64,000 nucleotides of DNA from an uncultured Chloroflexia bacterium (GTDB lineage Bacteria > Chloroflexota > Anaerolineae > Anaerolineales > UBA4823): contig CAWBUW010000007.1 in assembly GCA_963792075.1 (NCBI GenBank), positions 974,429-1,038,428 of the forward strand, given 5' to 3'. The position numbers and the translations under genes are program-made. Positions 38,414 to 55,577 of this stretch are shown piece by piece (position 1 is the stretch's first letter; every line of letters begins with the position of its first letter). Below the pieces are notes generated by a model. That model had not been told where the DNA came from and did not search any database. It saw only the letters and a program-made list of their open reading frames with translations.

Positions 38414-38425
38414 CCCTCTTAGTAT

Positions 38426-38629: not shown

Positions 38630-39532
38630 ATGGACATGGGGACCGGAAGAATAGGCAATATCGATAACGACACCCGCCGGGTGGACTATGCCCAGCTTGG
38701 CGCAGTAGCCGGGGTGGATACCGGCACACGCGGCGCGTACTACCTGGATGCGTTCGAATCCCGCCGCCAGACCTACATCGGCCTGGCGAGTGAGGCGTCG
38801 CGTACCCTGGGCGCTGCGCTCAATCTCAGGCAGCACCCCGGTTCCACGAGGGTCAAAGCGCAGGCGCTCGACACCGCCAGCTTTGTCCGCGTCGAAGGGG
38901 TGACCTTCTCCACGGGCGCTGCCATCACTGTCACACAGGTGGTCCAGGCCACCTTGCCTGCCGCGGCGCACGTCAGGGCAGTCCTGGCGCCCTCGACTGA
39001 GGCGCAGCCGCTGCCTGGCGTAAGCGGCGCGCCAGCCCTTACCAGTGTGTCGCAAACCATCACTTATACCTACGACCCGCTTTACAGCTTGAAGCGCACC
39101 GATTACAGCGACGGGACGTACTTCAGCTACACCTACGATGCTGCGGGCAACCGTCTGACCGAGCAGACCACCGGCGGGACGAGCAGCGCCTACGTTTACG
39201 ATGCCGCCAACCGGATGCTCAGCGCCGGAGGCATCGTCTATACCTGGGACGACAACGGCAATCTGCTCTCGGATGGGGGGCGCACCTATACCTATAACCA
39301 CGCCAACCGGCTGGTGGGGGTCAATTCTCCTACACTGGTTTCCAGCATGGCGTATAATGGTCAAGGAGACCGTCTGCAGCAGACGGTGAACGGCGTGACC
39401 ACGACCTACATGTGGCCTGGTTATGGCAAGGATTCTGTTGGGGACATGGTGATATTGACCAGAGCGCAAGAAGATTACCACTGCGGTACGAGCCATGAGA
39501 AATACCCGTGTGGAAATACAACGACTCCGTAA
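38630..39532 (+). pseudogene. internal Rhs/YD-repeat gene fragment with a unique 40-aa tail
   Basis: 38656-39410 is near-identical to 49318-50075 of the 738-aa rhs gene. It lacks the 5' part and the Rhs core/C-terminal tip. YD repeats are present (YTYDPLYSLKRTDYSDGTYFSYTYDAAGNRL...). Confidence 0.75.
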
Positions 39533-39549
39533 TCCAGGAGGATAATCAC

Positions 39550-40877
39550 ATGAAACCCATCTCTCGCGTTGTGATCGTTATCCTGCTGAGCAACCTGTTC
39601 TTTGGCTGTCAATCGCCCACACTAGAGACGCCAATTAACACCCCTTCCGCCGTAACGCCATCGCCCTCGCCGCCCTCGACCGTTACTACCACCGCAACAC
39701 CCACTCCATCAGTGTCGCCGACCGTGACGCTCCAACCGACCTTTACGCCAGCGCCCAATACATCTACCCCCACGCCCATTTCACTCCCTCTGCACACCTT
39801 CGAGCAGCGTTGTGTGATGATGGAAAGCTCTCTTCCGCCAGGTTTCCTTGCGGAAGGGACGATCATCCTAGATTGGGAATACAAATGGGGAAGCTTCGCG
39901 CTCATGGCGCTAACCGCTGAAGATGAGCAGCCGCGTCCACTTCCTGACCTTCCTGAGATTGGCAGCGGTGGAAAAGTATCCCCTGGTGAAAAATGGCTTG
40001 CTTTTTATGGTGGTACCAATGGCGACCTGATAATCCTCTCGTCCGCCGGAACAATTCATGCGACTAGCGCCAGAAATAACGACTGGGGAAACATGCAGGA
40101 AGGTTGGCTGGACACGGAAAGGATCCTCTTTCAGAGTCTTTCCATGCCAGCCGCGCTTTACATTATCAATCCGTTTACCGAACAGGAGGAGCTCTTTGCA
40201 CCTGAGATAAAGGACCGCTACGAGTACGATCGCGAGTGGTCGGGTTGGTACGTTTGGAAGCTCGTTCCTGACCCAACGCTGACCCGCCTGGCATACGTGC
40301 GTGCCTATTTCGATGGACAAAAAAGGTTAGCTCCTCCTGCTCTGGTACTGGTCAATTTAGAGAATGGACAGACTCTTTGGGAGTTGAGACGCTTTTCCCC
40401 AGGTGACCGTCACATGCCTGCTTGGTCCCTGGATGGAAGCCAAATGGCCGTCATTTCTGATGACTATCAGTACTTGGAAAACGCTTATCATTGGGAGGTG
40501 TTTACAGTAAGCCGGGGTGGACAGGGTATTCACTGGCTTGATGTCGAAGTGGGATCGGATGCAAAGCCTTTCCCCACATTAGGAGAGAACCTTGCGTGGT
40601 CTCCTGACGGGCGATACATAGCCTTTTTTGGCAATAGTTTATATATCCTGGATACAGAGATGCGCCGAGTATTTGACCTTTGTATTCCCTATGCAACACA
40701 AACGGAGAAACTCATCTATCCTGAGAACACGATTACATGGTCGCAAGATAGCACACAATTCTCTTTCAGCGCGGCGATGCTCCTGCGCTGGTCATCGACC
40801 TCGAGAGCAACCGGGCTGCTCCACTGGTCGAAGATTTCAATATCCGCCCGATTGGTTGGCTGCGCGTAGAACCATGA
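39550..40877 (+). pseudogene. P-family PD40 propeller lipoprotein (P1), -1 frameshift near 40771-40777
   Basis: AGGAGG + ATG at 39550, lipobox FFGCQ and PT linker. The C-terminus DAPALVIDLESNRAAPLVEDFNIRPIGWLRVEP is only readable after a shift. Its TGA overlaps the ATG of the next cassette. Confidence 0.7.
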
Positions 40878-41209
40878 GTAAGGATGATTACATTAAGTTG
40901 CAGTATCTACGTTCCCGGTGGTATTCAATGGAAATTGGAAGGTTCCTCTCGAAAGATACCTGGGCGGGAGATCCGATGCAGCCCTTGTCATATAATGCCT
41001 GGTTGTATTCTTTCGCGAATCCGATAAATTATACCGATCCTATGGAGCTTTCCACTATAAACACTTGCGATTTGTTACAACCAGATGATCGCGAAGCCTG
41101 TCTTATTATACTGACGCCTACACAGAGAGATGATTTGTGCGGCGATCATAACTGCTTTAATCCTGACCTGCCCGAACCTGTATGGCTGAATAAAACCCAG
41201 GAGCCTTAG
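40874..41209 (+). CDS. orphan Rhs C-terminal cassette O1 (core-end motif plus a short Cys-rich tip)
   Basis: YIKLQYLRSRWYSMEIGRFLSKD...NAWLYSFANPINYTDP. The 60-nt block 40888-40947 matches 50335-50394 with 2 mismatches. Confidence 0.7.
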   Translation: MSKDDYIKLQYLRSRWYSMEIGRFLSKDTWAGDPMQPLSYNAWLYSFANPINYTDPMELSTINTCDLLQPDDREACLIILTPTQRDDLCGDHNCFNPDLPEPVWLNKTQEP

Positions 41210-41210
41210 T

Positions 41211-42448
41211 ATGCAAAAGATGTTTAAAATCTACCTGGTATTCTTCAGCGCTTTACTGGGTGGCTGCCAGCAAGGGCCGGCAGCCACTTCTATCACGCCA
41301 GGTTCCCCTTCACAAGCAACAGCGCTGCCAACCTATGCAACCCCAACCTTCGAGGCAAAAGAACCTGCGACGAGTACCGCGACAGCAACGCATACGTTTA
41401 CACCGAAGATCACACCAGTCCCAATTCCTGGTTACCAGGAAAATTGCCTGGCCATTGAAGAAAAAGTTGCTCTTGGCTTTCTATCAGGGGATGCGCTGAT
41501 CATGATCAGTAGTCAAGTTGATGGAGTATTCGCCCTAACCTCTGCAGAAAATGACATCCATCTGTTGAGTGATATCATGAACCATAGTCTTCCAATCGTG
41601 TCACCGAATGGAAAACTGGCTAGGCTACGAAGTAGAGGCCCGGATGGCAAGCGTTTCCTGGAAGTCAGGTCATTCGGCGGTCAACGGCAATGAACCGTCT
41701 CTTATCGAGAAAATTGGTATATGCTGTCTTATTGGTTGGATAATGATCGAGTCGTTATCCTGCGAAGCGGCAACGGAGTAATCGTTGTCAATCCCTTCAC
41801 AGCAGAGATCACCGAGCTAGATTTTTCTTCTCCAAAGTTCTCCGCCAGTCAACCTGTAACAAACTTCTTCCTGGATCCATCCCTCGATCGGGTGGTTTTT
41901 TATCGGAATATACTGACAGAGTTTGCCAGCCTTATGCTGTGGGATGTGCAGGCGAAACGAGAGTTGTGGAGGGCGGAGATCGGTGATCAATTATGGTACC
42001 TTCAACCGCAGTGGTCGCCGGATGGGACACAATTCGTGGTCGGCATTCCGCCGGCGCTGTATGACCCTGTTTTCGAGCTGTTTGTCCTGGATCGCGAAGG
42101 CAAAAGGACGCTATTGACTCATTGGAAAAATGACAACCGTCGAGGAAAGGAACGATCATTGAATCACGATGGGCTCAAGCCGGACGGTATATCGCTTTTT
42201 GGTTAACAAATTCTTTGGCTGTTTTCGATATGATGACAGGAATGGTGAGAGACTATTGCCTTCCGTCGAACAGTTCCATGAACGCCGAAATCTATTGGTC
42301 CCCTGACAGCGAGCAAGTTGTATTTTCCCAAAGAATTCGACCCTATTATGGCCTCCTACGAGTGATTATGATAGACATCCAGAAAACTCTGGCCATTGAG
42401 GTAGCAAGGAACCAGCCGGATTGGGCTGGATGACAGGAGAGCCTTAGC
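41211..42448 (+). pseudogene. P-family propeller lipoprotein (P2), with an in-frame TGA and at least two frameshifts
   Basis: Lipobox LLGGC. In-frame TGA at 41691-41693, frame change between about 42130 and 42185, and another near 42411-42417. Confidence 0.7.
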
Positions 42449-42888
42449 CTGGATAACCAACGCCCGCCGACCTTCACTCCGACCCCTACGCCGCCCATCC
42501 GCCGGATGCTATCATTACCGATATTTTGAGAGCGGTAACAGCTCTGCCTGGTGGGACAGCCAGACCGGCGTTGGATCACCCTCATGTGCACGATGTGATC
42601 TAACTCAATAGCGGAAGGGTATTGGGGCAATTGATACGAGACAGTTATAAACGATCAAGCATGGAGTAAAATATGCCGACCTGGCAAACTGTATAACCGC
42701 CAATGGAAGATTTCTACCGATAATCGGAATCATGTTGTGTCGTTTACGAGTAGCTGTTCGCTGGGAGGGGGCGCACAACAGGTGCAGCCAGGGCCTACCT
42801 ACTTATCGTCAATTGCTTTATCTTTACTTTCCGCTAACTGAGTTATTTGGGATGCAAGAATTATTTCCTATTCATCGAGAGGTAATTT

Positions 42889-43047
42889 ATGATGAAAAAA
42901 TTTATACCATTAATTTTGTTGGTAATATTCTTTTGTGTAAGTTTAGCAATAAAACAAGATCTCCTAACGAATGCATTCCAAGTCCGAGATAATGAGCTGC
43001 CTTGCATCAGAAAATGGCTTCCGATAATTAGCGACCGGAAGATGTGA
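42889..43047 (+). CDS. possible 52-aa signal-peptide-bearing small protein
   Basis: GAGAGG + ATGATG; MMKKFIPLILLVIFFCVSLA.... Lies in an 870-bp AT-rich gap. Not in the supplied ORF track because it is under 60 aa. Confidence 0.2.
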   Translation: MMKKFIPLILLVIFFCVSLAIKQDLLTNAFQVRDNELPCIRKWLPIISDRKM

Positions 43048-43303
43048 TTTTGATAAAACCGCTCGTTTTATTGCATTGGGTTAACTCAACTTTTGATACA
43101 AAATTATCCAGGGCTTCGACCATCAAAATATTTGTTTTACGATTATTCGGTATTGGGGAAATGATTGCTACCATTCGATCATTAATAATTCAATGTACGA
43201 TACTGATTAAATAACTATTGCCTTCGTCACTACCCCAGAACAGCAACGTAACTTATGCGGAAACGCATCATGTGTTACAGGAAAGTAGAAATATGGCAAA
43301 ACA

Positions 43304-44584
43304 ATGTTCTCAATTCTTATCTTGTTTTGTCTGCTGGTAAGCTGTGGGATACGTACTCCAAATTCTCAGCCCACCATGACTATTAATTCGTCTATTGCTG
43401 TAACTCCCACGTCAACAACATTGGCTACGATTTCTTCTACACTGATGTCCACCGCAAAGCCCCCAACACCCACAGTGATGGAAGCGCCAACCATTACACC
43501 CCCTCTCACAATGAGTGCAGTGACACAAATATGTCTGGAGATTACTGGAAAAGAAACAGACCTGGATGCTGTTTCAGATTTGGGTAAGGTAGTTATATTA
43601 GACAACCTCAATGATCGCCGCATCTATCACATCCTAGATCTTTACACGGATGAAAGTTTTGATTTACCTCTCTCCAATCCGGATGATCCTTTCTATACTG
43701 GAATGACTGTCTCCCCAGATGGTTCCACGCTAGTATATCGTGAAGGGCGTCATGATAAAGCAGTGTGGGTAGTGACAGCAGAAGGAAAAGTGTTGGGCAA
43801 ATATCCTCCCTTCGAAATGGGACTAGTAGGAGAAAGGTGGATAGACAACGAACGCATGGAGTTGGATTGGAATGGATCCTCCTATCCGCCTGATATAGAG
43901 CAAGGCGGGGTTGTTATCTTTGACCCTTTCACAGGTCAGAGGCAATATCTTGCTCCAACATTTCCAGATGTATATGACACTTCACCACCAGCTTATTGGA
44001 CGGCACAATACAGTTCAGATTTAGAATGGGCTGTTTATGTTCAATGGTGGCCCGAGCAGGGCCCTGGGATCGGTGTATGGGATGTCGCGGCGCAAAGGAT
44101 AATCTGGCAACAACAAGAATCTATTGTGACTTCTTGGCGGAGTCCTCCAGTGTGGGTGTCTTCAGGTGAATGGGTTGCGCTTTTGGTAGATGGCGTGCTC
44201 TATCGCATTAATCGCACGGGAGATGTCATGCTTCTTCCTGAACTAAGCAGCTCATCTTGGGGTTTTATCAATTCCTTTAGTGGGTCCCCTGATGGACATT
44301 ATTTAGCCTTCTGGGTCACCATCGTCGAAGGGTTCAAGGAAACCAAGCTCTTTATCCTTGATACGGAAACAAACCAGCTTTTTGATTATTGCATTAATAA
44401 TGATTTTCTATCTGGGCGTATTATATGGTCGTTCAATGGCCAGCAGTTCATAATTCAGGGATCAAAGCAGAATAATAACGGCCAATTGCATAACCAGGTA
44501 ATTTTAGTAGATCGGGTACAGCAGAAGGCATATCTTCTTTCCCCAGATCAGGTGCCGCTAGCTTGGTTGAGATCTAGGCCATGA
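43304..44584 (+). CDS. P-family PD40 propeller lipoprotein (P3), intact
   Basis: Lipobox LLVSC, T/P-rich linker and blades (VSPDGSTLVY, GSPDGHYLAFW). AT-rich. Confidence 0.75.
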   Translation: MFSILILFCLLVSCGIRTPNSQPTMTINSSIAVTPTSTTLATISSTLMSTAKPPTPTVMEAPTITPPLTMSAVTQICLEITGKETDLDAVSDLGKVVILDNLNDRRIYHILDLYTDESFDLPLSNPDDPFYTGMTVSPDGSTLVYREGRHDKAVWVVTAEGKVLGKYPPFEMGLVGERWIDNERMELDWNGSSYPPDIEQGGVVIFDPFTGQRQYLAPTFPDVYDTSPPAYWTAQYSSDLEWAVYVQWWPEQGPGIGVWDVAAQRIIWQQQESIVTSWRSPPVWVSSGEWVALLVDGVLYRINRTGDVMLLPELSSSSWGFINSFSGSPDGHYLAFWVTIVEGFKETKLFILDTETNQLFDYCINNDFLSGRIIWSFNGQQFIIQGSKQNNNGQLHNQVILVDRVQQKAYLLSPDQVPLAWLRSRP

Positions 44585-44776: not shown

Positions 44777-45795
44777 ATGATGCATGGCGTTAATCCTAAG
44801 TTTGTTTTGTGCCTGGTTTTCCTCAGCCTTTTGGCCCAGGTTGGCTGTAGTAATATAGCCTCTCCTAAAACGAGCACAGCGGTATCTCCTGTCTTGCCCA
44901 CTCGCGTTTTAGAGGCATCTACGATCACGCCATCTTTAGGAATCCAACCAACTCAAATGCTTCTACTGACAGAAACACCGACGCTAACGCCAACTGTAAC
45001 TCCATCGCCAACCGTTACACCTTCACCCACCGTTCAAACCACGCCCACCTTGGAAGCGGAGGAAAGTTATACATACGTCATGAATTTGTTCAAGACGAAC
45101 GGCGGTTGTACCCTTCCCTGCATCATTGGGATAACACCCGGTAAAACCAGTTGGGGCGAGGTGCAGGCTAAGTTCGCTTTCTTAGGAAAAGAGCCTCCAA
45201 AACCATGGATCATTGATCATTATGGATTGAAATATTACCGTTATCAATACCTCCAAGAAGGACAACCTACTTTGGCAGGATTCTCTTTTATGTTAAGGAT
45301 GATGAAGTCACTATTATGGGTATGGGAATCCACATGATCACCGATCCTGGTATCGAAAAACAGTACGCAATAAAGACGATTTTGTCGACGCTCGGGAAGC
45401 CGAAAGAGGTATTCCTTACCCTGACCGGTTTGGGAGCGCTGGGTCCGGAAGAAATTAATCCTTACGACATCAAATTATATTATGATGATGAACGAACTTG
45501 GATGATTGTTTCTTATGAAGGGATCGCACTGATGACAGGCAATGTGCTAAGATTCTGCACAACGGATCTTCGTCAAGGAATAGAGGGAAGAGTCGAGAAC
45601 GATGTTGGCTTAACCATCCAACCTGGTCAAAATCATTATATGCCTGAAGATCTTGCTCAAATCGAGGGTGGTGGCGGTCCGATTTTATCTGGCAAGTCAT
45701 TCGAAGAAGCAACGGGTGAAGATGTAGCAAGCTTTTTTGAAAAAGCAACCGGACCAGGTGAGGCTTGTTTCACCACACTAAAGGGGATTTGGTAG
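44777..45795 (+). pseudogene. N-family lipoprotein (N2), -1 frameshift at the T4 run 45286-45289
   Basis: Lipobox AQVGC, TPTVTPSPTV linker and TNGGCTLPCIIGITPGKTSWGE. The second half reads on as FYVKDDEVTIMGMGIH... in the -1 frame. Confidence 0.7.
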
Positions 45796-45919: not shown

Positions 45920-47302
45920 ATGAAGAGAAAATTTTTGTTCCTGCTTAGTGCAATATTGATGATCTTGCCTGGCTGCCAGGCTGGCGAGGGCGTAGGAACC
46001 CAAATCCTGAATATCACACCATCTGGCTTCGCGACAGATACGGCGCCCCGCCTGGCGACCCTGACGCCTCGGCCGCTAACGTTGGCGCCGGCTTTCACCC
46101 CGATGCTGCCCACAGACTGGCCTTCCCCTTTCGCTGTAACCGAGTCTCCAACATATCCAAGCGCTCCGGCAACTCTTACTTCCCGGCTCGCGGCGACTTT
46201 AACCGCAACCCCCTCTGCAAGTTTTCCTCCACCAGGTGAATATACTATTTACTACTTCGAATCGAATGATACACCAGACCATTACCTGGAGTTCGCATCG
46301 CTGGATGGGGAAATCCGAGGGCGACTCCTGTCGTTACCTCCGGCGCGGGTTTATCTTTCTCCATATCGTGCAGAGGTGACAATCGCCCCGCTCGATAGCA
46401 CACAATTGCCTTATCGGCTTGACCTTCAAACCGGCGTTACCACACCCATTCCATCCGCAGATCAATCCTGTGATGATTTCAGTTGGTCACCAGACGGGAA
46501 GCAGGCGATTGCGACTTGTGCCGACCCAGATACAGAAGGCGGCCAGACGCTTTACCTGCTATCGCTTCAAGATGAGCAGCGCACTCGATTGATAAATTGT
46601 GAAACCGATCTGTGTGGGTTAACAGCATGGTCGCCAGACGGCCTGTGGATTGCGTATTTGAGAAAAACACTTGCTTCGGGAGTGTATTCGACCGATGGAC
46701 TTTATCTATTTGCAGCCCGGTGCCTCAATACGCCAGGCACTTGTGACGCAACCGTCAATGGACCTTATGCTACGCGCCTGCCATTGTTCTGGTCTCCGGA
46801 CAGCCGGTACCTGGCGAGCGCATGGCATAACAAGACGATACGGGTCTTTGAGACCGGCGAACGCGGCCTGCAATTTTCTTATGAGATTATGGCAGGATGG
46901 TCTATCTGGGCGTTGGCCTGGCTGCCTGATAGTGAATGGATTGTGTTTGATATGGGGAACGGTATTTATAAGGTGCCTGCACAAGGCGGGGAACCAATTT
47001 TTCTAAATAGGGGGCCTAATGAAGATGTCATTGGGTGGCTGTGCGTACCCTGGCCGGCCCAGCCCGGCGCGATTTTCACTGTCACCCCCGCCGGCGACAA
47101 TCTCAACCTGCGTGACGCGCCTGCGCTGGCCGGAACAATCCTGCAAAAGCTCCAGCCGGGCGATACGGTGACGATCCTCTCCAGCCCGGTGCAGGCAGAT
47201 GGCTACACCTGGTGGCAGATGCAGGCAGAAGATGGTACGGCAGGTTGGGCAGTAAATATCCCAGAGTGGTATGAACCTGTCGAACAGGAAAAACCAGGTT
47301 AG
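45920..47302 (+). CDS. PD40 propeller lipoprotein with C-terminal bacterial SH3 domain (P4)
   Basis: Lipobox ILPGC; FSWSPDGKQAIA, AWSPDGLWIAY and FWSPDSRYLAS blades. C-terminus: LNLRDAPALAGTILQKLQPGDTVTIL...DGYTWWQMQAEDGTAGWAVNIPEWY. Confidence 0.8.
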   Translation: MKRKFLFLLSAILMILPGCQAGEGVGTQILNITPSGFATDTAPRLATLTPRPLTLAPAFTPMLPTDWPSPFAVTESPTYPSAPATLTSRLAATLTATPSASFPPPGEYTIYYFESNDTPDHYLEFASLDGEIRGRLLSLPPARVYLSPYRAEVTIAPLDSTQLPYRLDLQTGVTTPIPSADQSCDDFSWSPDGKQAIATCADPDTEGGQTLYLLSLQDEQRTRLINCETDLCGLTAWSPDGLWIAYLRKTLASGVYSTDGLYLFAARCLNTPGTCDATVNGPYATRLPLFWSPDSRYLASAWHNKTIRVFETGERGLQFSYEIMAGWSIWALAWLPDSEWIVFDMGNGIYKVPAQGGEPIFLNRGPNEDVIGWLCVPWPAQPGAIFTVTPAGDNLNLRDAPALAGTILQKLQPGDTVTILSSPVQADGYTWWQMQAEDGTAGWAVNIPEWYEPVEQEKPG

Positions 47303-47356
47303 TGATAGCCAACAAGAAAGCAATACCCTTATGTGGGCATCCTCATTGTTCTAATG

Positions 47357-47425: not shown

Positions 47426-47462
47426 TTTTTATTAATCCCGGCAGAATCTTTTGGAGAAACCT

Positions 47463-48782
47463 ATGTTACGGCATCCTAAATTCATTCTCATCATCTTGGC
47501 AGCAGTTGTTCTTCTGGAAGGCTGTTCGTCCCCCACAATCGTGCCAGCCCCACCTATCGAGAGCACGACACCCACCGCGCTGGTGGCAACGCCTACCAGT
47601 ATACCGACTGAGCCGCCGGCGACTCTCACGCCTACCCAGCCGGCGCCAACGCTCACCCCATCGCCGGCTGAGCCTGCGACAACAAGTACAGTTGTCCTGC
47701 CCCCTGAAAATATCTTGAGATACCAGCCATTCGACATTGCTCCCGATCTACCAGCAGACGTAAAGCCATCCGGCGCATTGCTGGTCTGGGGCGAGCAGCC
47801 ACAACTTCTGCACTTCAATCCACGAGCGTGGTTGGAAGACTTGCCAGGTATTGATACGGGCTGCCTTTCGATCTCTCCGGATGGGCAATGGATTGCTTAC
47901 TGCCCGTTGTCCGATGATTCTCCAACAGGGCAGTGGTTAATTGTCGAGTCGGCCGACCGGCAGCAGAAGAAAAAGGTCCCGATGGATACACGTCTGCGAT
48001 ATTTCGGTGCCCACCTCTGGCTGGACAACCAGCACTTGATCTTTCCCCTGATTCGGGAAGAGTATGAGCTGCGCCCCATGGTGGTCATCAATCCTTTCAC
48101 CGGAGAGCAATTCGAGCTGGCTTCCGATTACCCCGACCTGCGGCCCGACCCGGGGGGCATCACAGGTTCCATGCAATTCGGTATCAGCGATGTAGTATAC
48201 GACCCTACTCTTGACCTGGTAGTATACCCGCAATGGGGACCCCAGGCTTACCTCGTGGTATGGAATCGACAGACGCAAACTGTTGTGGCGAAGGTCGAAG
48301 ACCTGGGTCCTATGGAGCACTATCCTCTCTGGTCATCCGATGGAAAACAACTTGCGCTTGCGGTGACGTATCAGTATGGGGAACAATACGGCGATTTCAT
48401 CGAGGAATGGTTCAGAGTGAGCCGGGAAGGGCAGGTGGAGCGTCTGACCTACTTCGCGGATTATTTCGTGCATGCCAGGGTTGGCGCCGCCAATTGGTCG
48501 CCGGACGGCCAGAAGCTGGCTTTCTGGCTGGAAACCAGCCCAAGTCTGTGTCCAGGCACGCGCCTGGCAGTTCTGGAGGTGGCAACACGGCAGGTGACGA
48601 ACACCTGTGTTCCAACGCCTGAATATTTTGACCCGCCTCCGCTCTGGTCTTCGGACAGCCGCTATATTGCCGTGATCAATGGCGATGACAGTCCATACCA
48701 AACGATCCTCGTAGATTTTGAACAGAGCCAGGCCTTTAATATAACTTATGGTTCACCGATTGGATGGCTGGCGTTACCTTGA
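47463..48782 (+). CDS. P-family PD40 propeller lipoprotein (P5), close paralogue of 14691-15995
   Basis: Lipobox LLEGC. Shares long identical stretches with P0 (SPTGQWLIVESADRQQ, NWSPDGQKLAFWLETS, ATRQVTNTC). Confidence 0.8.
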   Translation: MLRHPKFILIILAAVVLLEGCSSPTIVPAPPIESTTPTALVATPTSIPTEPPATLTPTQPAPTLTPSPAEPATTSTVVLPPENILRYQPFDIAPDLPADVKPSGALLVWGEQPQLLHFNPRAWLEDLPGIDTGCLSISPDGQWIAYCPLSDDSPTGQWLIVESADRQQKKKVPMDTRLRYFGAHLWLDNQHLIFPLIREEYELRPMVVINPFTGEQFELASDYPDLRPDPGGITGSMQFGISDVVYDPTLDLVVYPQWGPQAYLVVWNRQTQTVVAKVEDLGPMEHYPLWSSDGKQLALAVTYQYGEQYGDFIEEWFRVSREGQVERLTYFADYFVHARVGAANWSPDGQKLAFWLETSPSLCPGTRLAVLEVATRQVTNTCVPTPEYFDPPPLWSSDSRYIAVINGDDSPYQTILVDFEQSQAFNITYGSPIGWLALP

Positions 48783-49051
48783 AGCCAGTGGGTGAGTGGT
48801 GAATTTTCCTAATCGTATGAACTTGTTGATAAATGACAAAGGAGTAAGCGAATACAAACGATGGACTGACAAATCTTATGTAATTTCAAGGTATTGTTAA
48901 AAGATGGCGGCAATGGACCTAGCTGCTTGAGACTATGATGCCATAGCAGGTTGTTATCAATGATGATGGCAGTCTTTACATATAGGATGACACACCAGCC
49001 AGCGAAGAACGCTGCCAGGCGCGCTTCCTGTTCGACGTAAATACTCTCCCT

Positions 49052-51268
49052 ATGGCGAACAATACCGGCCACCACCTGTTCTACGCCCTGAACCGGGATA
49101 ACACCGTCGTGATGCGGCTGGAGCTGCGCTACTACAACTCCGCTTACCAGGTGCGGGCCGAGGCGGTCAACGACGCCGGCTGGTATGTGTCGCTCTCCTG
49201 GACAACGCTCACCGACGCCCCGCACTACATCGAGATCGAATGGAAGGCCGCCGCGGCGGCCGGGGCCAACAATGGTGTGATCACCCTTTGGGTAGATGGG
49301 ACACAGACCGGCAGCATTGCCAATATCGATAACGACACCCGCCGGGTGGACTATGCCCAGCTTGGCGCAGTAGCCGGGGTGGATACCGGCACACGCGGCG
49401 CGTACTACCTGGATGCGTTCGAATCCCGCCGCCAGACCTACATCGGCCTGGCGAGCGAGGCGTCGCGTACCCTGGGCGCTGTGCTCAATCTCAGGCAGCA
49501 CACGGGTTCCACAAGGGTCAAAGCGCAGGCGCTCGACACCGCCAGCTTTGTCCGCGTCGAAGGGGTGACCTTCTCCACGGGCGCTGCCATCACCGCCACG
49601 CAGGTGGTCCAGGCCACCTTGCCTGCCGCGGCGCACGTCAGGGCTATGCTGGCGCCGGCGAGCGAGGCGCAGCCGCTGCCTGGCGTAAGCAAAGCGCCAG
49701 CCTCCAGCAGCGCCTCACAAACCATCACCTATACCTACGATCCGCTCTACCGCCTGAAGCGCACCGATTACAGCGACGGGACGTACTTCAGCTACACCTA
49801 CGATTCTGTAGGCAACCGCCTGACCGAGCAGACCACCGGCGGGACGAGCAGCGCCTACGTTTACGATGCCGCCAACCGGATGCTCAGCGCCGGAGGCATC
49901 GTCTATACCTGGGACGACAACGGCAATCTGCTCTCGGATGGGGGGCGCACCTATACCTATAACCACGCCAACCGGCTGGTGGGGGTCAATTCTCCTACAC
50001 TGGTTTCCAGTATGGCGTATAATGGTCAAGGAGACCGTCTGCAGCAGACGGTGAACGGCGTGACCACGACCTACACGCTGGACCTGGCAGGAGGCCTGAC
50101 GCAGGTGCTCTCGGACGGGACACACACTTACCTGTACGGCAGCGGGCGTATCGCCCAATACGCCGGAACGACCCCGGAGTATTTCCTGCCGGACGCGCTG
50201 GGTTCCGTGCGGCAGTTGGCGGATGCCAGCGGCAGCGTGACGTTGGCGGAGAGTTACCAGCCGTATGGCGAAACCTTGAGCCACGGCGGCGCAGGGCAAA
50301 GCCCGTATGGATATGCTGGGGAATGGGAGGACAGTTACATTAAGTTGCAGTATCTACGTTCCCGGTGGTATTCGATGGAAATTGGAAGATTCCTGACCAA
50401 AGACTCCTGGCAAGGGGATTATAACAGACCAATGTCGCTTAATGCCTGGCTATACGTAGGGGCGGATCCGGTCAACCACACGGATCCGAGTGGAATGTGC
50501 CCGCCGGGTTATATAGACGGAGACCTGGATGGAAGATGCGAAAAGACATGCGATCCTTGTGAGAGTTTTCCACCGCCGCCACAAGGATTACCTGAAAGCA
50601 ACCCCGTGGAAAAAGTATACAAAAGATTGGCGACAGAACCATGGAAATGCAAATCTCGTTATGGGGAAATAACTTCGCTGGCCCCGTGGTGGAAAACGGT
50701 AGAGGCCAGCGGCAAGGACCCTACTTATGTAAATACTACACTTGCAATCGCCACAATGATTTACCTGGAAGAAAATTTATTGTATGCATTGAACCCCAAT
50801 GCTATAGTCTATGAAACGGAAGCCCTTGCTCACAGGTTTTGGTATTTTTGTAATATGTATGGGAGCTGCTCCATTAGCAAGACCGGAGTTATTGGGGAAG
50901 GAGTAAAAAAATACTTGCATTGGAGTATCAGTTTTGAAAGCCTTGCAAGTAATATAGAACTATTCTCTGAGGGTTATGGCCCTCCGGCAAGTGCATATAG
51001 GGAAGCAAAGAAAATTACAGATGCGTATAGGAATAATCCAAGTTGGACGACTTGTAAAGATTATCACATGGGAGATTGTTGGGACAGACCATGGGGACCT
51101 TTTAGCGCAATACTGGATTATAAGTATTTCTATGATAGATATGATAGAGAAGGGGACACCACTGTCAACAAGGTTTTCTATATGTGGAGCAACCTTGTAA
51201 TATTGACTTTTGCACAAACCAATTATCACTGTGTACAACCCGGCGTTTACTGTGGGACTAAGAAATGA
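49052..51268 (+). CDS. Rhs/YD-repeat protein with LamG-like N-terminal remnant, Rhs core end and an unrecognised Cys-rich C-terminal tip; probably 5'-truncated
   Basis: YD repeats; core-end motif YLRSRWYSMEIGRFLTKD...NAWLYVGADPVNHTDPSGM; then about 240 AT-rich-encoded residues with 11 Cys. No signal or secretion domain. Too short for a full Rhs shell. Confidence 0.8.
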   Translation: MANNTGHHLFYALNRDNTVVMRLELRYYNSAYQVRAEAVNDAGWYVSLSWTTLTDAPHYIEIEWKAAAAAGANNGVITLWVDGTQTGSIANIDNDTRRVDYAQLGAVAGVDTGTRGAYYLDAFESRRQTYIGLASEASRTLGAVLNLRQHTGSTRVKAQALDTASFVRVEGVTFSTGAAITATQVVQATLPAAAHVRAMLAPASEAQPLPGVSKAPASSSASQTITYTYDPLYRLKRTDYSDGTYFSYTYDSVGNRLTEQTTGGTSSAYVYDAANRMLSAGGIVYTWDDNGNLLSDGGRTYTYNHANRLVGVNSPTLVSSMAYNGQGDRLQQTVNGVTTTYTLDLAGGLTQVLSDGTHTYLYGSGRIAQYAGTTPEYFLPDALGSVRQLADASGSVTLAESYQPYGETLSHGGAGQSPYGYAGEWEDSYIKLQYLRSRWYSMEIGRFLTKDSWQGDYNRPMSLNAWLYVGADPVNHTDPSGMCPPGYIDGDLDGRCEKTCDPCESFPPPPQGLPESNPVEKVYKRLATEPWKCKSRYGEITSLAPWWKTVEASGKDPTYVNTTLAIATMIYLEENLLYALNPNAIVYETEALAHRFWYFCNMYGSCSISKTGVIGEGVKKYLHWSISFESLASNIELFSEGYGPPASAYREAKKITDAYRNNPSWTTCKDYHMGDCWDRPWGPFSAILDYKYFYDRYDREGDTTVNKVFYMWSNLVILTFAQTNYHCVQPGVYCGTKK

Positions 51269-52589
51269 ACAAGCTGAAATTAATAGGCATAACACTTCTG
51301 GCCTTTTTCCTGACAAGCTGCAGCTCAGTCACCCCATTGGCGGTTCAACCGACTTCCTCTGGAGCTTCTCTAAGTACAGCGACCCTATTCTTCAATTCAG
51401 TAGCCACTGTTTACCCGCCGCTTTCTCCGCCCCCAGTTTTAACGAATACACCCTTGCTAACCGTTACCCCTACTTCCACATTTACTCCTTCGCCTACACC
51501 GGAGTCGTTGCCCATTCGCGTCGCTAAGCAGCAGTGTATTCCAATTCGACCTGAGCTTGCTCCAGGTTTTTTGTCGAGCGGTGTTTTGATTCTGGGAAAC
51601 TTCACTAATCATGTCTATGTTGGTGACCTGGTGGCGCTCACACCACAGGTTAGCCAGCCCAAATTCATCCCTGGCGCTGTGTCTTTTGGTTATGGCAAGG
51701 TCTCTCCAAATGGAAAGTTGCTTGCTTATGCAAATGATGGACAGTTGGTAATTATCTCTGCAGATGGCAAGATCCACGTATCTGAATCTTGGGATTCCCA
51801 ATGGAAAGGAGGCTTCCTTGAATGGCTCGGACAAGACCGTTTACAGTTTAATGACTGGGAGCCTTCTGACTCAACTGCTTCAAGGATTATTCTAAGTTCG
51901 AGAATAATTCTGAACCCTTTTACAAAGGAGATTCAACGGTTAAACCTCCTCAAGATATGTATTACGACCCAAATCCTATGATCGCGGAGCCATGGAAAGT
52001 AGTATATGATTCTACCTTGACCCGACTAGCTTACATGCGCGATGACGGCCCCACCTTTGTGCTTTGGGATTTGCAGAATAATCAGGCGATATGGACATTG
52101 AAAAAGTATTCGGTCAAATCGACCCCACCCATGTGGTCTCCAGATGAAATGCAGTTGGCTGTCGTAGCGATGAATCAGCCTGAGGACAATTGGGATCGAC
52201 TCGAGCTGTTTCTGGTCACCCGTGATGGGCAAGCGCAAAAGTGGGTAGACCTGCAAGGATATCACCCAACTACTGGTCAGGGTACTCTAAGATGGTCGCC
52301 GAATGGGCGCTATATTGCATTCTGGGAATGGAGTTACAAAGCCCCGATTCTAATCCTCGACACAATCAAGAAACAGTTGTTGGATTACTGTATCATTGGC
52401 GCTGCCGGATATGGGGATTTTGTTTGGTCGCCGGATAGCACTCAGGTGACTGTTACCAGATATGAGGCCCCCTCTATCGTTATTGATGTAGAGAAAGGTA
52501 TCGCATCACAGATCACGCAAGACTGGCATTTCAGGCCAGTAGGGTGGATGGTTAACTCATCTGAAATCATGGCCACGCCTACGCCATGA
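51265..52589 (+). pseudogene. P-family propeller lipoprotein (P6), -1 frameshift at the CC run 51945-51946
   Basis: The ATG overlaps the rhs TGA (ATGA). Lipobox FLTSC. Restoring CCC gives ...EIQRLNPPQDMYYDPNPMI.... Confidence 0.7.
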
Positions 52590-52682: not shown

Positions 52683-54055
52683 ATGATACGCAAAGTATGG
52701 TTACTAACCACAGTATTGTTAGTAGGCGGATTTATTGCAGCTTGTTCATCGCCGCAACCTAATTCAGAATACCGAGAAACAGCTACCACTTCTGAGATAA
52801 TCTCGCCCACAAAAACACAATACTCTTTAGTGTTATCATCTACAGAACATCCTAATACTGTGACGCCTGCTGCTGCTGAGGGTTCCCCATCAGCTTCACA
52901 GACACCCAATCCTGTAACGCCTACCCCAGTGGCTGCCCGGCTTACTAACGTGGCCGATACTTCGGTCTGGTGGGAAAAGTTGCTGCCGGGCCAATACCTG
53001 CTTTATTGGGTTTTTGATGAGCCCAAGCAATACTCTCTTTATGCTACATCGTACGATGGAGCTCACGAAGTACGCTTGGGGGCAGGAGTCGCTGATTTAG
53101 GGGTAATTTCAGCCGACTTGACAATGCTGCTTTATATAACCCCGAATGCTTTTTCAGGGATACAGAGCTGATTATAAAAAACCTGAATGATGGCACGATC
53201 AAGAGAATCCCCGATACACAAGGTTGCCATGAACCAAGTTGGTCACCTGATAGCAAGAGCTTTGCTGCTCAGTGTCACGGTGAAATATGGGTTTTCTATC
53301 TCGAAACCAATGACCGGGTTTTAATCGCGGAAGGACCAACTTATTGGAGTTCGCCTGTCTGGTCACCGGATGGGAAATGGGTTGCATATTTTAACCGGCC
53401 TGATATCCATGTAAGACCTGATGATGGGTTATATGTTGCGGATGTATCCTGCATCTTCAGTGAAGTTACCTATCAGATTAATAAAGTAGGGCCTTTTATG
53501 GAAGCCTTGAATCCTCCCATTTCATGGTCTTCTAACAGTCAATACTTGGCCACAGTTACTGAAACTTCCATTTCCATTCTAGACTTCCAGAAAGGTAAGT
53601 TTCGCGAGCTTGTTGAAATTTATAACAGTATGTACCCGGAAGCTGTAACCTGGTCTCTGGATGGAAAATATATTGCTTACGACATTTTTGGGAGTGATGT
53701 TTATGTAGTGGATTCCTTGAGCGGTGCGCTAGTATTTCGTGTATATCCTCCTCCTCAGAGCTTTCAAATCATTACTTGGATTTCGATTCCACATCCATGT
53801 ACGCCGGGAAAGATCTACAACATTACCGAAAATGGAGCGGACCTTAACCTGCGTGATAGTCCTTCTCTGAATGGCACAGTTGTGAAGCAACTCAAACCCA
53901 ACGATATGGTTACAGTCCTGGATGGGTTAATCCGAGCCGATGGTTATACCTGGTGGAAATTGCAGACAGAAGGTGGCACAGAAGGTTGGGCGGTGAATAT
54001 CCCAGAGTGGTACGCGCCGTTGGTCCCGGCAATTACTGTTACGCCCACCTCATAA
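52683..54055 (+). pseudogene. PD40 propeller lipoprotein with C-terminal SH3 domain (P7), -1 frameshift at the GGG run 53157-53159
   Basis: Lipobox FIAAC. The second frame is open from about 53160 (TELIIKNLNDGTIKRIP...WSPDSKSF...WSPDGKWVAY...). SH3 tail: DGYTWWKLQTEGGTEGWAVNIPEWY. Confidence 0.7.
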
Positions 54056-54757
54056 AGATGTGGTCAAGGAGACTGGCTGCAGCAGACTGTGAACGGCGTG
54101 ACCACCGCTTACACGCTGGATATGGCAGGAGGCTTGACGCAGGTACTCTCGGACGGGACGCACACTTACCTGTATGGCAACAGGCGCATCGCGCGGCGTA
54201 TCGCGCAGTACAGCGGGACAGCGCCGGAATACTTCCTGCCGGATGCACTCGGCTCGGTGCGGCAGATCACGGACAGCAGCGGGGAGGTAACTCTGGCGCA
54301 AACTTACCAACCATTTGGTGAAATCTTGAGCCAGGGCGGCGCGGGGCAGAGCCCATATGGATATGCCGGGGAATGGGAAGATTCCGAATCAGGGCTGGTG
54401 TATCTCAGGGCTCGGCATTACAGCCCTTATCTTACCAGTTCATCCAGCCTGATCCTATTGTACCAAACCCTTACCAGCCCTGGGAGTGGAACCTTTACAC
54501 ATATTCACGAAACAATCCAATCAGGTTTACGGATCCAAGCGGAAAATATTCGACTGACCCAGGCGACCAAACCTCCATTACGCCGCTGGCCATATTCAAG
54601 CTCGGATATCCCTACACCGGCTCCTGGAAACCGGATGGTCCATAACCGATGGGAAGTCAAGCCGGATGGCAGCTTATCAGAAACTGCATTAAAACGTGCT
54701 GATTACATGAGTTCTCGCATGCCTGGCTGGATAACAGCAATCATCCTGGCAAGGTAA
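54056..54757 (+). pseudogene. orphan Rhs 3' cassette O2 (YD repeats, core end, short tip), frameshifted
   Basis: 54063 to about 54360 is homologous to 50024 to about 50330. LVYLRARHYSPYL is followed in the -1 frame by QFIQPDPIVPNPYQPWEWNLYTYSRNNPIRFTDPSG. It opens right after the stop of P7, in the same frame. Confidence 0.7.
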
Positions 54758-54769
54758 AGGAAGAGTTTA

Positions 54770-55577
54770 ATGAAATCTAGGTTTAGAAATCTGGTAATAG
54801 GTATCCTTATCCTGCTTATAGCGAGCTGCCGTTCACTGCCTCAACCTTCCGACACACTCGTAAAGCCATCGGTCACCCTGACGAGCACCACAATGAGAAA
54901 AACCGCGACACCTTCTCCTTCAATTCCGTTGACGCCAAGTCCCTCTGTCACATTGACTTCAAGCTCTACCCTCACCGCAAAGCCTACCATCACGCAAACA
55001 CCTGCACCAGAACCTACCTGGACACCCCTACCTACTCTTCCTGCAAGCGAAGCTCTAGCCATCGTCAAAGATTTACTAAAAAACAATGGCGGCTGCCGTT
55101 TACCATGCTGGTGGGGAATCGTGCCCGGCGAAACTACCTGGTTGGAAGCCCAGCATTGATATTGGACCAGACTCGACGGTTCAAAGTTTCCAATTGCACC
55201 AACTGCTCTCGGATTATGGGAAACCAGATAAAATTCTTATAAAAACCTATTCAAATACTCCCGCATCCTACTTACCATTTCGACTAGTCCTCTTTTATTC
55301 AAGCCAACAAATCATGGCATTCTTTGAATATGAAGCGCAAAAGAATAAGGATATCCTTGTTGGCTGTCCGCAACCTGTTGGTCCATGGCTCACATTATGG
55401 GGATGGGATAGATTGTGGTCAGATAAAGATATCGATGAAGCAGTTTCAGGTCCAGACAGCCCACAGCCATTACGGCCACTTGAAGAGGTTACGGATATGA
55501 GCGTCGATGATTTTTATCAAACATTCAAAGATTCACAAAACACAACATGTATAACAACGCCGGCTGACTTGTGGTGA
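54770..55577 (+). pseudogene. N-family lipoprotein (N3), internal deletion with a frame change near 55140-55160
   Basis: Lipobox LIASC and NNGGCRLPCWWGIVPGETTWLEAQ, then a stop. The +1 frame continues IDIGPDSTVQSF...KPDKILIKT.... About 45-60 residues present in N1 are missing. Confidence 0.65.

What the first reader, a model, noticed from the sequence alone, without database searches (positions are those of the whole stretch)
38630..55577. Rhs island in which toxin-tip cassettes alternate with large extracytoplasmic lipoproteins in a translationally coupled chain
Gene order: rhs fragment A - P1 - orphan tip O1 - P2 - (AT-rich gap) - P3 - N2 - P4 - P5 - rhs (738 aa) - P6 - P7 - orphan cassette O2 - N3.

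The junctions are very tight:
- The P1 stop overlaps the O1 start (ATGA at 40874-40877).
- The O1 stop is 1 nt from the P2 start.
- The rhs stop overlaps the P6 start (ATGA at 51265-51268).
- O2 opens in frame directly after the P7 stop.

Interpretation:
- In classical rhs loci, the gene after each C-terminal tip is a small cytoplasmic immunity protein, and orphan tip/immunity pairs accumulate downstream.
- Here the immunity position is occupied by 430-460-aa lipoproteins (PD40 propellers, some with SH3b) or by N-family lipoproteins.
- The tips themselves are Cys-rich.
- Together this suggests toxins acting outside the cytoplasm with surface-anchored immunity. That is analogous to periplasm-acting T6SS effectors and lipoprotein immunity, but with a different and much larger immunity fold.
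- Alternatively, it may be a system that is not toxin/immunity at all.
Basis: partly seen in the sequence, partly recalled or inferred. Interest (0 to 1): 0.72.

Follow-up and report, generated by a model that had tools for sequence, protein, structure and literature searches.

The report
Decayed Rhs cassettes paired with lipoproteins
This stretch of a Chloroflexota genome is a partly decayed array of Rhs toxin-tip cassettes, each followed at once by a surface-lipoprotein gene; the same tip-lipoprotein pairs recur in many metagenomes, so the lipoproteins are probably a new kind of cell-surface immunity protein.

Summary
The gene order and all four tight junctions are real. However, at least 7 of the 13 genes are broken by frameshifts, a nonsense codon or deletions. 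The 738-aa "rhs" is a 5'-truncated orphan, and the window holds no full-length Rhs.

Every rhs tip is followed within -4 to +14 nt by a lipoprotein gene. Lipoprotein-to-lipoprotein gaps are 93-870 nt, so this is not one coupled chain.

Comparative data support functional pairing:
- The 256-aa Cys-rich tip belongs to a rare family: 12 representatives among 1.84 billion proteins.
- It has no Pfam, PDB or BFVD match, despite a confident model.
- It is followed by a P1/P6-type PD40 propeller lipoprotein in 5 of 5 cases, with matching divergence.
- N-family lipoproteins follow an Rhs core in 29 of 45 testable metagenome copies.
- 33 of 35 such tips carry HExxH. The window's O2-N3 pair is a decayed member of this module.
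- P5-type lipoproteins directly follow full-length Rhs genes elsewhere.
- P and N genes also occur without rhs, including P0-N1 in this window.

Best reading: orphan Rhs cassettes whose tips act in the cell envelope, with lipoprotein immunity. Toxicity and binding are untested. This is a new variant of a known kind.

The parts
38630..39532 (+). rhs fragment A. YD-repeat segment that duplicates rhs738 aa 86-341, joined by an internal deletion to the last ~38 aa of a tip of the same family as the rhs738 tip.
   Evidence: 94% aa identity to rhs738. 300-nt repeat at 96%. The tail is 58% identical to the tail of the P0124 tip, E=7e-16. RHS_repeat and YD_repeat hits.
39547..40877 (+). P1. PD40-type beta-propeller lipoprotein with a frameshift near 40750. 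The corrected stop TGA (40875-40877) overlaps the O1 ATG.
   Evidence: Three-frame reading. 49% identity to the lipoproteins that follow the same tip family in L007 and L008. PD40 21.6 bits against a cut-off of 20.9.
40874..41209 (+). O1. Orphan fragment made of the last part of the Rhs core plus a 56-aa tip with 4 Cys.
   Evidence: TIGR03696 36.4 bits. 72% identity to rhs738 aa 426-479. Sequence.
41211..42433 (+). P2. P-family lipoprotein pseudogene with an in-frame TGA at 41691-41693 and a frameshift near 42170.
43304..44584 (+). P3. Intact, divergent P-family lipoprotein with no tip upstream; it follows an 870-nt AT-rich gap.
   Evidence: Cluster members at 90% identity or more exist on other contigs.
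44777..45795 (+). N2. N-family lipoprotein (NGGCxLPC motif) with a frameshift near 45320 and no tip upstream.
45920..47302 (+). P4. Intact propeller lipoprotein with a C-terminal SH3b domain.
   Evidence: SH3_3 30.7 bits, plus PD40 and WD40 hits.
47451..48782 (+). P5. Intact PD40 propeller lipoprotein (probable ATG at 47463), paralogue of P0. Its subfamily directly follows full-length Rhs genes in other genomes.
   Evidence: PD40 41.8 bits. 61% identity to P0. Homologues in L093, L006 and L092.
48947..51268 (+). rhs738. A 5'-truncated orphan Rhs C-terminal cassette. The ORF runs 49052-51268, the core is at 50255-50497 and the tip at 50498-51265.
   Evidence: TIGR03696 59.8 bits at aa 402-482. 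Homology to the L006 Rhs starts at 48947, upstream of the ATG and across a stop codon.
50498..51265 (+). Tip of rhs738. A 256-aa domain with 11 Cys and no recognised fold. Y89, E91 and R113 are invariant; conserved Cys pairs sit at 118/124 and 245/252.
   Evidence: 12 homologues among 1.84 billion representatives. Alignment. Model pLDDT 80.7. No PDB or BFVD match. No Pfam hit.
51265..52589 (+). P6. Propeller lipoprotein of the P1 type with a frameshift near 51950. Its start overlaps the rhs738 stop (ATGA).
52683..54055 (+). P7. P4-type propeller plus SH3b lipoprotein with a frameshift near 53170.
   Evidence: SH3_3 38.7 bits. 35% identity to P4. Three-frame reading.
54056..54757 (+). O2. Orphan rhs fragment (last repeats plus core) with a frameshift near 54425. 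It ends in a shrunken, interrupted relic of an HExxH-type tip: 'LHEFSHAW' in frame 1 and the tail 'ALKRADYMSSRMPGWITAIILAR'.
   Evidence: 79% identity to rhs738 aa 325-441. TIGR03696 34.5 bits. Three-frame reading. The tail matches the tail of the L058 HExxH tip, E=0.013.
54770..55577 (+). N3. N-family lipoprotein pseudogene, 12 nt after O2, with a ~48-aa internal deletion and a frameshift.
14691..17527 (+). P0 (14691-15995) and N1 (16085-17527). An intact P/N pair in a low-GC patch next to htpG, with no rhs sequence nearby.

Best explanation
The region is the orphan-cassette part of an Rhs polymorphic-toxin locus in an Anaerolineae-like Chloroflexota genome.

**Structure**
- It holds four displaced 3' fragments of an rhs gene: A, O1, rhs738 and O2.
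- Each fragment ends in a different C-terminal tip or a remnant of one.
- Each is followed within a few bases by a gene for a membrane-anchored extracytoplasmic lipoprotein.
- Further lipoprotein genes of the same families sit between them without a tip: P3, N2, P4, P5 and P7.

**Shown**
- The tip-lipoprotein units are conserved modules.
- One module is a Cys-rich 256-aa tip of unrecognised fold paired with a P1/P6-type PD40 propeller lipoprotein.
- A second module is an HExxH tip paired with an N-family lipoprotein.

**Inferred mechanism**
- A full-length Rhs encoded elsewhere in the genome would carry such a tip outside the cell and release it after the DPxG core motif.
- The disulfide-bonded tip would act in the envelope of neighbouring cells.
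- The cognate lipoprotein, tethered to the outer face of the membrane by a Pro/Thr-rich linker, would bind and block the tip.

**State in this genome**
Most cassettes and several lipoprotein genes are decayed. The island is mainly a relic or reservoir; P3, P4 and P5 are intact and may act as orphan immunity genes.
For: **The fragments are Rhs orphans**
- YD repeats and the TIGR03696 core are present.
- rhs738 and the L006 orphans match the last ~530 constant residues of a 3263-aa Rhs and then diverge into different tips.

**Junctions**
- Tip-to-lipoprotein gaps are 14, 1, -4 and 12 nt.

**Conserved pairing**
- The tip family is followed by a P1/P6-type lipoprotein in L007 (39 nt), L008 (26 nt), L009, and twice in the window.
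- Partners track tips. The fragment A tail is close to the P0124, L007 and L008 tips, and P1 is 49% identical to their partners. The divergent rhs738 tip (27-37% identity) pairs with the divergent P6 (29-35%).
- For the N family, 29 of 45 copies have an Rhs core upstream. Of 35 pairs, 33 have HExxH in the tip, and the gaps are tight.
- P5-type genes follow full-length Rhs genes in L093 (10 nt) and L006, and alternate with rhs fragments in L092.

**Extracytoplasmic location**
- All partners have a lipobox-like Cys and a Pro/Thr/Ser-rich linker.
- The tip has conserved Cys pairs.
- Tip homologue P0129 has its own lipobox.

**Mosaicism typical of conflict loci**
- L001 shares only P5 (94% nt identity). 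It also carries a SUKH gene and rhs relics.
Against:
- The tip has no recognisable catalytic fold.
- P and N genes also occur with no rhs nearby: P0-N1 in the window, and L002, L004, L011 and L094. In L010 a P1-type gene follows gyrB with no tip upstream.
- The window holds no full-length Rhs.
- At least 7 of the 13 island genes are disrupted.
- The tips preceding P5-type genes in L006 and L093 show no detectable similarity to each other, so subfamily-to-tip specificity is not strict there.
Confidence: 0.6

Rival explanations
1. The tip and lipoprotein work together, but not as toxin and immunity. The lipoprotein could be a surface anchor, receptor, chaperone or substrate of the tip. For example, an HExxH peptidase might cut Pro/Thr-rich lipoprotein linkers. 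Alternatively, the pairs could form a variable cell-cell recognition or adhesion system in filamentous Chloroflexota.
For: - The conserved adjacency and co-divergence show a functional link, not its direction.
- The partners are large (270-480 aa) compared with typical immunity proteins.
- The tip has no known toxic fold.
- P4 and P7 carry SH3b domains, which usually bind cell wall.
Against: - The polymorphic orphan arrays with retained downstream genes match the classical toxin/immunity pattern.
- A SUKH immunity-family gene sits inside a related P array.
- Stand-alone P and N genes without any tip are expected for orphan immunity genes, but not for a dedicated anchor or chaperone.
Confidence: 0.2
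2. The adjacency is incidental. P and N are large lineage-specific families of envelope lipoproteins with housekeeping roles, and rhs fragments have simply recombined into an array of them.
For: - The P family is widespread in Anaerolineae-like genomes (147 or more hits).
- It occurs next to glycosyltransferases, ruvABC, two-component systems and phage genes without rhs.
- P0-N1 sits beside htpG.
Against: - The tip family is followed by one P subfamily in 5 of 5 cases.
- 29 of 45 N copies have an Rhs core 0.45-1.3 kb upstream on the same strand, and 33 of 35 of those tips carry HExxH.
- 4 of 8 long-contig contexts of P5-type genes contain rhs.
- Such rates are far above what unlinked genes would give.
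Confidence: 0.08
3. The island is functionally dead and many of its oddities come from decay or assembly error. The frameshifts are either true pseudogenisation or homopolymer errors of a long-read assembly.
For: - htpG, a housekeeping gene, is split at a C-run near 12900.
- The P1 shift fits the loss of one A in a short A-run.
- At least 8 disruptions lie in 17 kb.
Against: - A nonsense codon in P2, a 48-aa deletion in N3 and large deletions in A, O1 and O2 are not indel errors.
- Ten other backbone ORFs read through as long ORFs, and those with a family-model match cover most of it.
- This explains the state of the locus, not the conserved modules seen in intact form elsewhere (L007, L008, L052, L093).
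Confidence: 0.12

Closest known systems
Classical Rhs / YD-repeat polymorphic toxin loci with orphan tip-immunity cassettes (enterobacterial Rhs; Bacillus subtilis WapA-WapI in a monoderm)
   Same: - YD repeats are followed by the Rhs-associated core ending in DPxG, then a variable C-terminal tip.
- Displaced 3' fragments repeat the constant region and carry other tips.
- Each tip is followed at once by its own partner gene.
- The arrays are mosaic between strains.
   Different: - The partner genes encode 270-480-aa lipoproteins with signal peptide, lipobox and Pro/Thr linker, not small cytoplasmic proteins.
- The tips carry conserved Cys pairs and match no known nuclease, deaminase or other toxin family.
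- No full-length Rhs lies in this window.
Periplasm-acting T6SS effectors with periplasmic or lipoprotein immunity, in particular Tse1-Tsi1 of Pseudomonas aeruginosa
   Same: - The toxin acts in the envelope and the immunity protein is exported to the same compartment.
- Tsi1 is described as a partial beta-propeller whose nearest structural relatives are DPP IV propellers (PMC3391265).
- P proteins give PD40 and weak DPPIV_N hits.
   Different: - Tsi1 is a small, fragmentary propeller. P proteins are full-size propellers, some with SH3b.
- Delivery here would be by an Rhs protein in a Chloroflexota cell, not by a T6SS.
- No sequence relationship to Tsi1 was tested or found.
Zincin-like metallopeptidase tips of polymorphic toxins (Tox-MPTase1-5 of Zhang et al. 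2012)
   Same: - These are HExxH tips attached to RHS repeats.
- The paper lists no immunity protein for them (PMC3482391).
- The HExxH tips paired with N lipoproteins have the same general layout.
   Different: - The tips found here match no Pfam model or PDB sequence.
- Membership in any Tox-MPTase family was not shown.
- They have a conserved partner, the N-family lipoprotein.
- In the window only a relic remains (O2).
TolB and other PD40 beta-propeller proteins
   Same: PD40 repeat hits above the gathering score in P5, P0, P4 and P1. Weak profile matches to TolB structures.
   Different: The TolB equivalog scores 33 bits against a cut-off of 343. The proteins are lipoproteins with no TolB N-terminal domain and no Tol-Pal context.

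Membership tests
Rhs / YD-repeat polymorphic toxin | YD (RHS) repeats | tested here: met
   PF05593 scores 35 bits in fragment A and 27 bits in rhs738. TIGR01643 also hits.
Rhs / YD-repeat polymorphic toxin | Rhs-associated core domain (TIGR03696) ending in DPxG, immediately before the variable tip | tested here: met
   rhs738 scores 59.8 bits at aa 402-482, ending 'DPSGM'. O1 scores 36.4 and O2 34.5, against a cut-off of 32.5.
Rhs / YD-repeat polymorphic toxin | Complete YD shell with an N-terminal trafficking region (a full-length, deployable protein) | tested here: not met
   - The largest ORF is 738 aa, with only a short YD segment between its N-terminal region and the core.
- Its homology continues upstream across a stop codon.
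- Full-length relatives are 3263 and 3728 aa.
- All four copies in the window are orphan fragments.
Rhs / YD-repeat polymorphic toxin | Orphan cassettes that repeat the constant 3' region and carry different tips | tested here: met
   Window copies at 38642, 40880, 49052 and 54062. The L006 orphan is 78% identical to the constant end of the main gene.
Toxin-immunity pair | Partner gene immediately downstream of the tip, conserved across unrelated samples | tested here: met
   5 of 5 for the rhs738 tip family. 35 Rhs-N pairs with gaps mostly of -4 to +33 nt.
Toxin-immunity pair | Partner diverges together with the tip | tested here: inconclusive
   - Holds for the P1 group against P6 and for HExxH tips with N.
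- P5-type partners follow tips in L006 and L093 that have no detectable similarity to each other.
- hhalign of the L093 tip against the tip profile gives only 32% probability.
Toxin-immunity pair | The tip is toxic, and the partner binds and neutralises it | not testable with these tools
   This needs expression assays or a complex prediction.
Bacterial lipoprotein | N-terminal hydrophobic signal ending in a lipobox with an invariant Cys | tested here: met
   Pattern check and direct reading only. A Cys at residues 14-29 follows a hydrophobic stretch in all P and N proteins, for example 'LFFGC', 'LLGGC', 'ILPGC', 'LIASC'. A linker of 28-61% Pro+Thr+Ser follows. No dedicated signal-peptide predictor was available.
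PD40 / TolB-type beta-propeller | PD40 repeats above the Pfam gathering score | tested here: met
   Scores against a cut-off of 20.9: P5 41.8, P0 26.8, P4 24.5, P1 21.6. P3 and the pseudogene pieces have no hit.
TolB (Tol-Pal system) | Match to the TolB equivalog model at its cut-off | tested here: not met
   TIGR02800 scores 33.4 bits (P5) and 20.2 bits (P4) against a cut-off of 343.
Zincin metallopeptidase tip (Tox-MPTase-like), for O2 and the metagenome tips paired with N | HExxH motif within a recognised metallopeptidase domain | tested here: inconclusive
   - The motif is present in 33 of 35 tips.
- In O2 it survives only as 'HEFSH', in a frame cut by stops.
- No Pfam or PDB sequence match exists for the domain.
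Any known toxin or enzyme fold, for the rhs738 tip | Significant sequence or structure match | tested here: not met
   - Pfam and NCBIfam: none.
- The PDB sequence profile matched only the Rhs core part.
- Foldseek best E-values were 2.2 against PDB and 1.1 against BFVD.

The most novel reading that the evidence does not exclude
Chloroflexota carry a previously undescribed branch of Rhs warfare. In it, disulfide-bonded tips act in the cell envelope. One tip family has a fold with no solved or viral relative; another is an unclassified HExxH domain. These tips would be neutralised by large, membrane-tethered lipoproteins: full-size PD40 beta-propellers and the N-family domain. Neither fold class is currently in the catalogue of polymorphic-toxin immunity proteins.
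Probability: 0.5. Interest if true: 0.72.

Novelty: new variant of a known kind. Interest (0 to 1): 0.58.

Why it matters
**Gap in current catalogues**
- Polymorphic-toxin catalogues were built mostly on cytoplasm-acting tips and small cytoplasmic immunity proteins.
- The 2012 survey found no beta-propeller immunity protein and only one lipoprotein immunity family. It listed no immunity partner for Rhs-linked metallopeptidase tips (PMC3482391).

**What this would add if correct**
- Two sizeable lipoprotein families as immunity proteins.
- Two unclassified tip families, one with no recognisable fold.
- A hint at how a poorly studied, filamentous phylum fights or recognises neighbours at the cell surface.

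**What can be tested directly**
- The L007 409/422, L008 340/426 and L052 pairs are intact and suitable for expression, binding and structure work.
- The tip's conserved Y-x-E / R positions and the HExxH motif suggest point mutants.

Tried and rejected
- **Word-indexed homologue search with the tip** found nothing. The cluster representative is the 300-aa fragment A, which lacks the tip. The exhaustive search then found 12 relatives.
- **Single-sequence structure prediction** of the tip failed, with pLDDT 35.
- **SleB / lysozyme-like idea** for the tip, from the 'YTEASP...NR' pattern, was rejected.
  - No Pfam hit.
  - hhalign to the L006 tip that looked similar by eye gave 0.2% probability.
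  - The BFVD 'cell wall hydrolase' rows have E above 1 and TM-scores of at most 0.32.
- **Genome-collection scan with the tip alignment.** The first alignment was too divergent. The narrower one found no GTDB genome.
- **Plasmid collection** gave no match to the tip.
- **Promoter and terminator scan** of the island found fewer sites than in shuffled sequence, so it is uninformative.
- **PDB profile search with the P1/P6 alignment** gave only marginal TolB / WD40 matches, E of 0.01 or higher.
- **Exact-match look-ups** of P5 from its TTG start, and of P0005, returned nothing.
- **Motif-based extraction** of Rhs-N pairs first returned 0, then 8 pairs. It was replaced by extraction from tblastn hits.
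- **BLAST between the tips that precede P5-type genes** in L006 and L093 found no similarity.

Full report
**1. What is in the sequence**

tblastn with the intact members shows four copies of rhs sequence:
- Fragment A (38642-39409) is 94% identical to rhs738 aa 86-341.
- O1 (40880-41041) is 72% identical to aa 426-479.
- rhs738 itself lies at 49052-51268.
- O2 (54062-54424) is 79% identical to aa 325-441.

YD repeats and the Rhs-associated core TIGR03696 are detected. Core scores are 59.8 bits for rhs738, 36.4 for O1 and 34.5 for O2, against a cut-off of 32.5.

The P proteins are PD40 / WD40-type beta-propellers. P4 and P7 add an SH3b domain. The N proteins share an 'NNGGCxLPCWWG' motif and match no Pfam or NCBIfam model.

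Every P and N protein begins with a hydrophobic stretch and a lipobox-like Cys at residues 14-29. A linker of 28-61% Pro+Thr+Ser follows.

**2. Junctions and gene integrity**

- O1 stop to P2 start: 1 nt.
- rhs stop and P6 start overlap in ATGA.
- O2 homology starts on the codon after the P7 stop.

The fourth, the P1 / O1 ATGA overlap, holds only after a frameshift near 40750 is corrected.

Three-frame reading and tblastn show widespread damage:
- P1, P6, P7, N2 and O2 are frameshifted.
- P2 has an in-frame TGA plus a frameshift.
- N3 lacks about 48 residues and is frameshifted.

Fragment A is a deletion derivative. 'QTVNGVTTTY' is joined directly to the last 38 residues of a tip. That tail is 58% identical to the tail of the tip of P0124.

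rhs738 is a truncated orphan. Homology to the Rhs genes of L006 begins at 48947, upstream of its ATG and across a stop codon.

htpG elsewhere in the window is also split, at a C-run, so some single-base shifts may be assembly errors. The nonsense codon and the deletions are not. Ten other backbone ORFs read through as long ORFs, and those that match a family model cover most of it.

Tight junctions occur only in two settings:
- Tip to lipoprotein: 14, 1, -4 and 12 nt.
- Lipoprotein to the next orphan: -4 and 0 nt.

Lipoprotein-to-lipoprotein gaps are 93-870 nt. The repeating unit is therefore [rhs 3' fragment + tip + lipoprotein], not one coupled chain.

**3. The orphans are typical Rhs orphans**

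- In L006, a 3263-aa Rhs is followed by a P5-type lipoprotein. Next comes an 806-aa orphan whose first 534 residues are 78% identical to the constant C-terminal region of the main gene. A propeller protein, a 422-aa orphan and another P-like lipoprotein follow.
- rhs738 aligns with the same constant region at 47% identity.
- L092 shows three rhs fragments alternating with P-type genes.
- In L093, a 3728-aa Rhs is followed 10 nt later by a P5-type gene.

**4. The rhs738 tip**

- The 256-aa tip has no Pfam or NCBIfam match.
- An exhaustive HMMER search of 1.84 billion representatives found only 12 relatives. Most sit after an Rhs core. One (P0129) is a free-standing protein with its own lipobox and Pro-rich linker.
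- Y89, E91 and R113 are invariant. Cys pairs at 118/124 and 245/252 are present in 9-10 of 12 sequences.
- With the 12-sequence alignment, AlphaFold2 gave pLDDT 80.7 and pTM 0.79.
- Foldseek found nothing significant. The best E-value was 2.2 against PDB and 1.1 against BFVD.

On present evidence the tip is a domain of unrecognised fold, probably enzymatic and probably disulfide-bonded.

**5. Tip-lipoprotein linkage (the key test)**

Three other members of the tip family could be placed on contigs:
- In L007 the tip gene is followed 39 nt later by a 422-aa PD40 lipoprotein.
- In L008 it is followed 26 nt later by a 426-aa PD40 lipoprotein.
- In L009 the contig ends inside a lipoprotein start of the same type ('LFFATGC', Pro/Thr linker, '...EKRCP').

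With rhs738-P6 and the fragment A tail-P1 pair, that makes 5 of 5.

The partners cluster together:
- P1, L007_422 and L008_426 are 49-74% identical.
- P6 is next, at 29-35%.
- Other P proteins are about 25% identical to these.

Tip divergence runs in parallel. The fragment A tail is close to the P0124, L007 and L008 tips. The rhs738 tip is only 27-37% identical to the rest.

**6. The N family**

- A metagenome scan returned 80 loci.
- Of 45 N-domain copies with at least 1.6 kb of upstream sequence, 29 have an Rhs core on the same strand ending 0.45-1.3 kb upstream. Most distances are 0.93-1.06 kb.
- Of 44 copies with enough downstream sequence, 19 are followed within 900 nt by more rhs sequence.
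- Of 35 Rhs-N pairs, 33 have an HExxH motif in a 220-350-aa tip, typically with 4 Cys. The gap from the tip stop to the first Met of the N gene is mostly -4 to +33 nt.
- These tips match no Pfam model or PDB sequence.

In the window, O2 keeps 'LHEFSHAW' in a frame interrupted by stops. Its tail, 'ALKRADYMSSRMPGWITAIILAR', resembles the tails of these tips (E=0.013). O2-N3 is therefore a decayed copy of this module.

**7. Counter-evidence**

P and N genes also occur without rhs:
- P0-N1 next to htpG in this window.
- L002, L004, L011 and L094.
- In L010, a P1-type gene follows gyrB with no tip upstream, although an rhs fragment lies downstream.

It is also what orphan immunity genes look like. 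L001, the closest relative of P5 (94% nt identity), shares only that gene with the window. It carries a SUKH immunity-family gene and rhs relics among its P genes.

Of eight long-contig contexts of P5-type genes, four contain rhs.

The tips before P5-type genes in L006 and L093 are not detectably similar to each other. hhalign of the L093 tip against the tip profile gives only 32% probability.

**8. Interpretation**

*Shown:*
- This is an array of Rhs orphan cassettes.
- There are conserved tip-lipoprotein modules of at least two kinds.
- The partners carry extracytoplasmic features, and the tips have conserved Cys pairs.

*Inferred:*
- The tips are toxins that act in the envelope.
- The lipoproteins are their immunity proteins.

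*Not shown:*
- Toxicity, binding, the target and the export route.

The main rival is that the pairs cooperate in some other way, as anchor, receptor, substrate or recognition system. Pure coincidence is contradicted by the linkage rates.

**9. Relation to what is known**

- The system type, Rhs with orphan tip / partner cassettes, is well known.
- Envelope-acting effectors with exported immunity are known from T6SS. Tsi1 is a partial beta-propeller related to DPP IV propellers (PMC3391265).
- The 2012 survey of polymorphic toxins stated that beta-propeller domains had not been found among immunity proteins. It found Imm65 to be the only lipoprotein immunity family, and it listed no immunity for Tox-MPTase1-5 (PMC3482391).
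- A text search found no paper on Rhs systems of Chloroflexota.
- The P proteins are not TolB: 33 bits against a cut-off of 343.

I classify this as a new variant of a known kind.

**10. Origin of the window**

The proteins are on record from an NCBI / ENA assembly with a 1,061,499-nt contig. Named relatives come from Anaerolineaceae, Anaerolineales and 'Chloroflexi / Chloroflexia bacterium' MAGs. An Anaerolineae-like Chloroflexota origin is therefore inferred.

Noticed in passing
window 27036-38509, - strand: Phage head and packaging genes lie at 32417-37622: a prohead protease / major capsid fusion (32417-34582), a portal (34603-36024) and a large terminase (35931-37622). A transposase lies at 28285-29253. 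This prophage remnant ends just before rhs fragment A, whose 5' truncation point is at about 38640.
   Followed up: partly
window 12419-14499: htpG is split into two ORFs by a frameshift at a run of C near 12900. This hints that the assembly may contain homopolymer indel errors.
   Followed up: partly
window 14691-17527: An intact P0-N1 lipoprotein pair sits in a low-GC patch (0.40-0.51) directly after htpG, with no rhs sequence nearby. N1 has an extra ~200-aa N-terminal region that N2 and N3 lack.
   Followed up: partly
window 8259-8323 and 47352-47416: A 65-nt palindromic element ('GGTAGTGTGTG...CACACACTACC') occurs twice at 82% identity. One copy lies between P4 and P5. It may be a terminator or a small repeated element.
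   Followed up: no
L052 958-6484; also L053, L065, L048 and others: Metagenome contigs carry tandem [Rhs fragment with an HExxH tip of ~250 aa and 4 Cys] + [N-family lipoprotein] units. These tips match no Pfam model. This module is well conserved and apparently undescribed.
   Followed up: partly
L001 5461-5805: A SUKH (SMI1_KNR4) immunity-family gene sits inside an array of P-type lipoprotein genes, in the contig that holds the closest relative of P5. That contig shares only this one gene with the window.
   Followed up: partly
L007 17218-18525: A 435-aa protein with three SH3b domains and a weak CHAP / NlpC-P60 match lies next to rhs fragments. It is a possible cell-wall hydrolase in the same island.
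   Followed up: no
L006 13860-14870: A PQQ / BamB-like beta-propeller (336 aa) overlaps the stop of an 806-aa rhs orphan. A second, unrelated propeller type therefore sits in the same position after a tip.
   Followed up: no
window 23101-25875, - strand: A 924-aa secreted protein has many repeats of the type 'GLQVVDI..P..P', which look LVIVD-like by eye. It has no PHROG hit and was not analysed further.
   Followed up: no
window 58052-58143 and 58340-58431: A 92-nt direct repeat at 80% identity lies inside the 403-aa ORF at 57973-59184 (- strand), so the protein has an internal repeat.
   Followed up: no
window 42434-43303: The AT-rich gap between P2 and P3 holds only a short ORF with a signal-like start (42732-42992, 86 aa). 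Nothing else was recognised.
   Followed up: no
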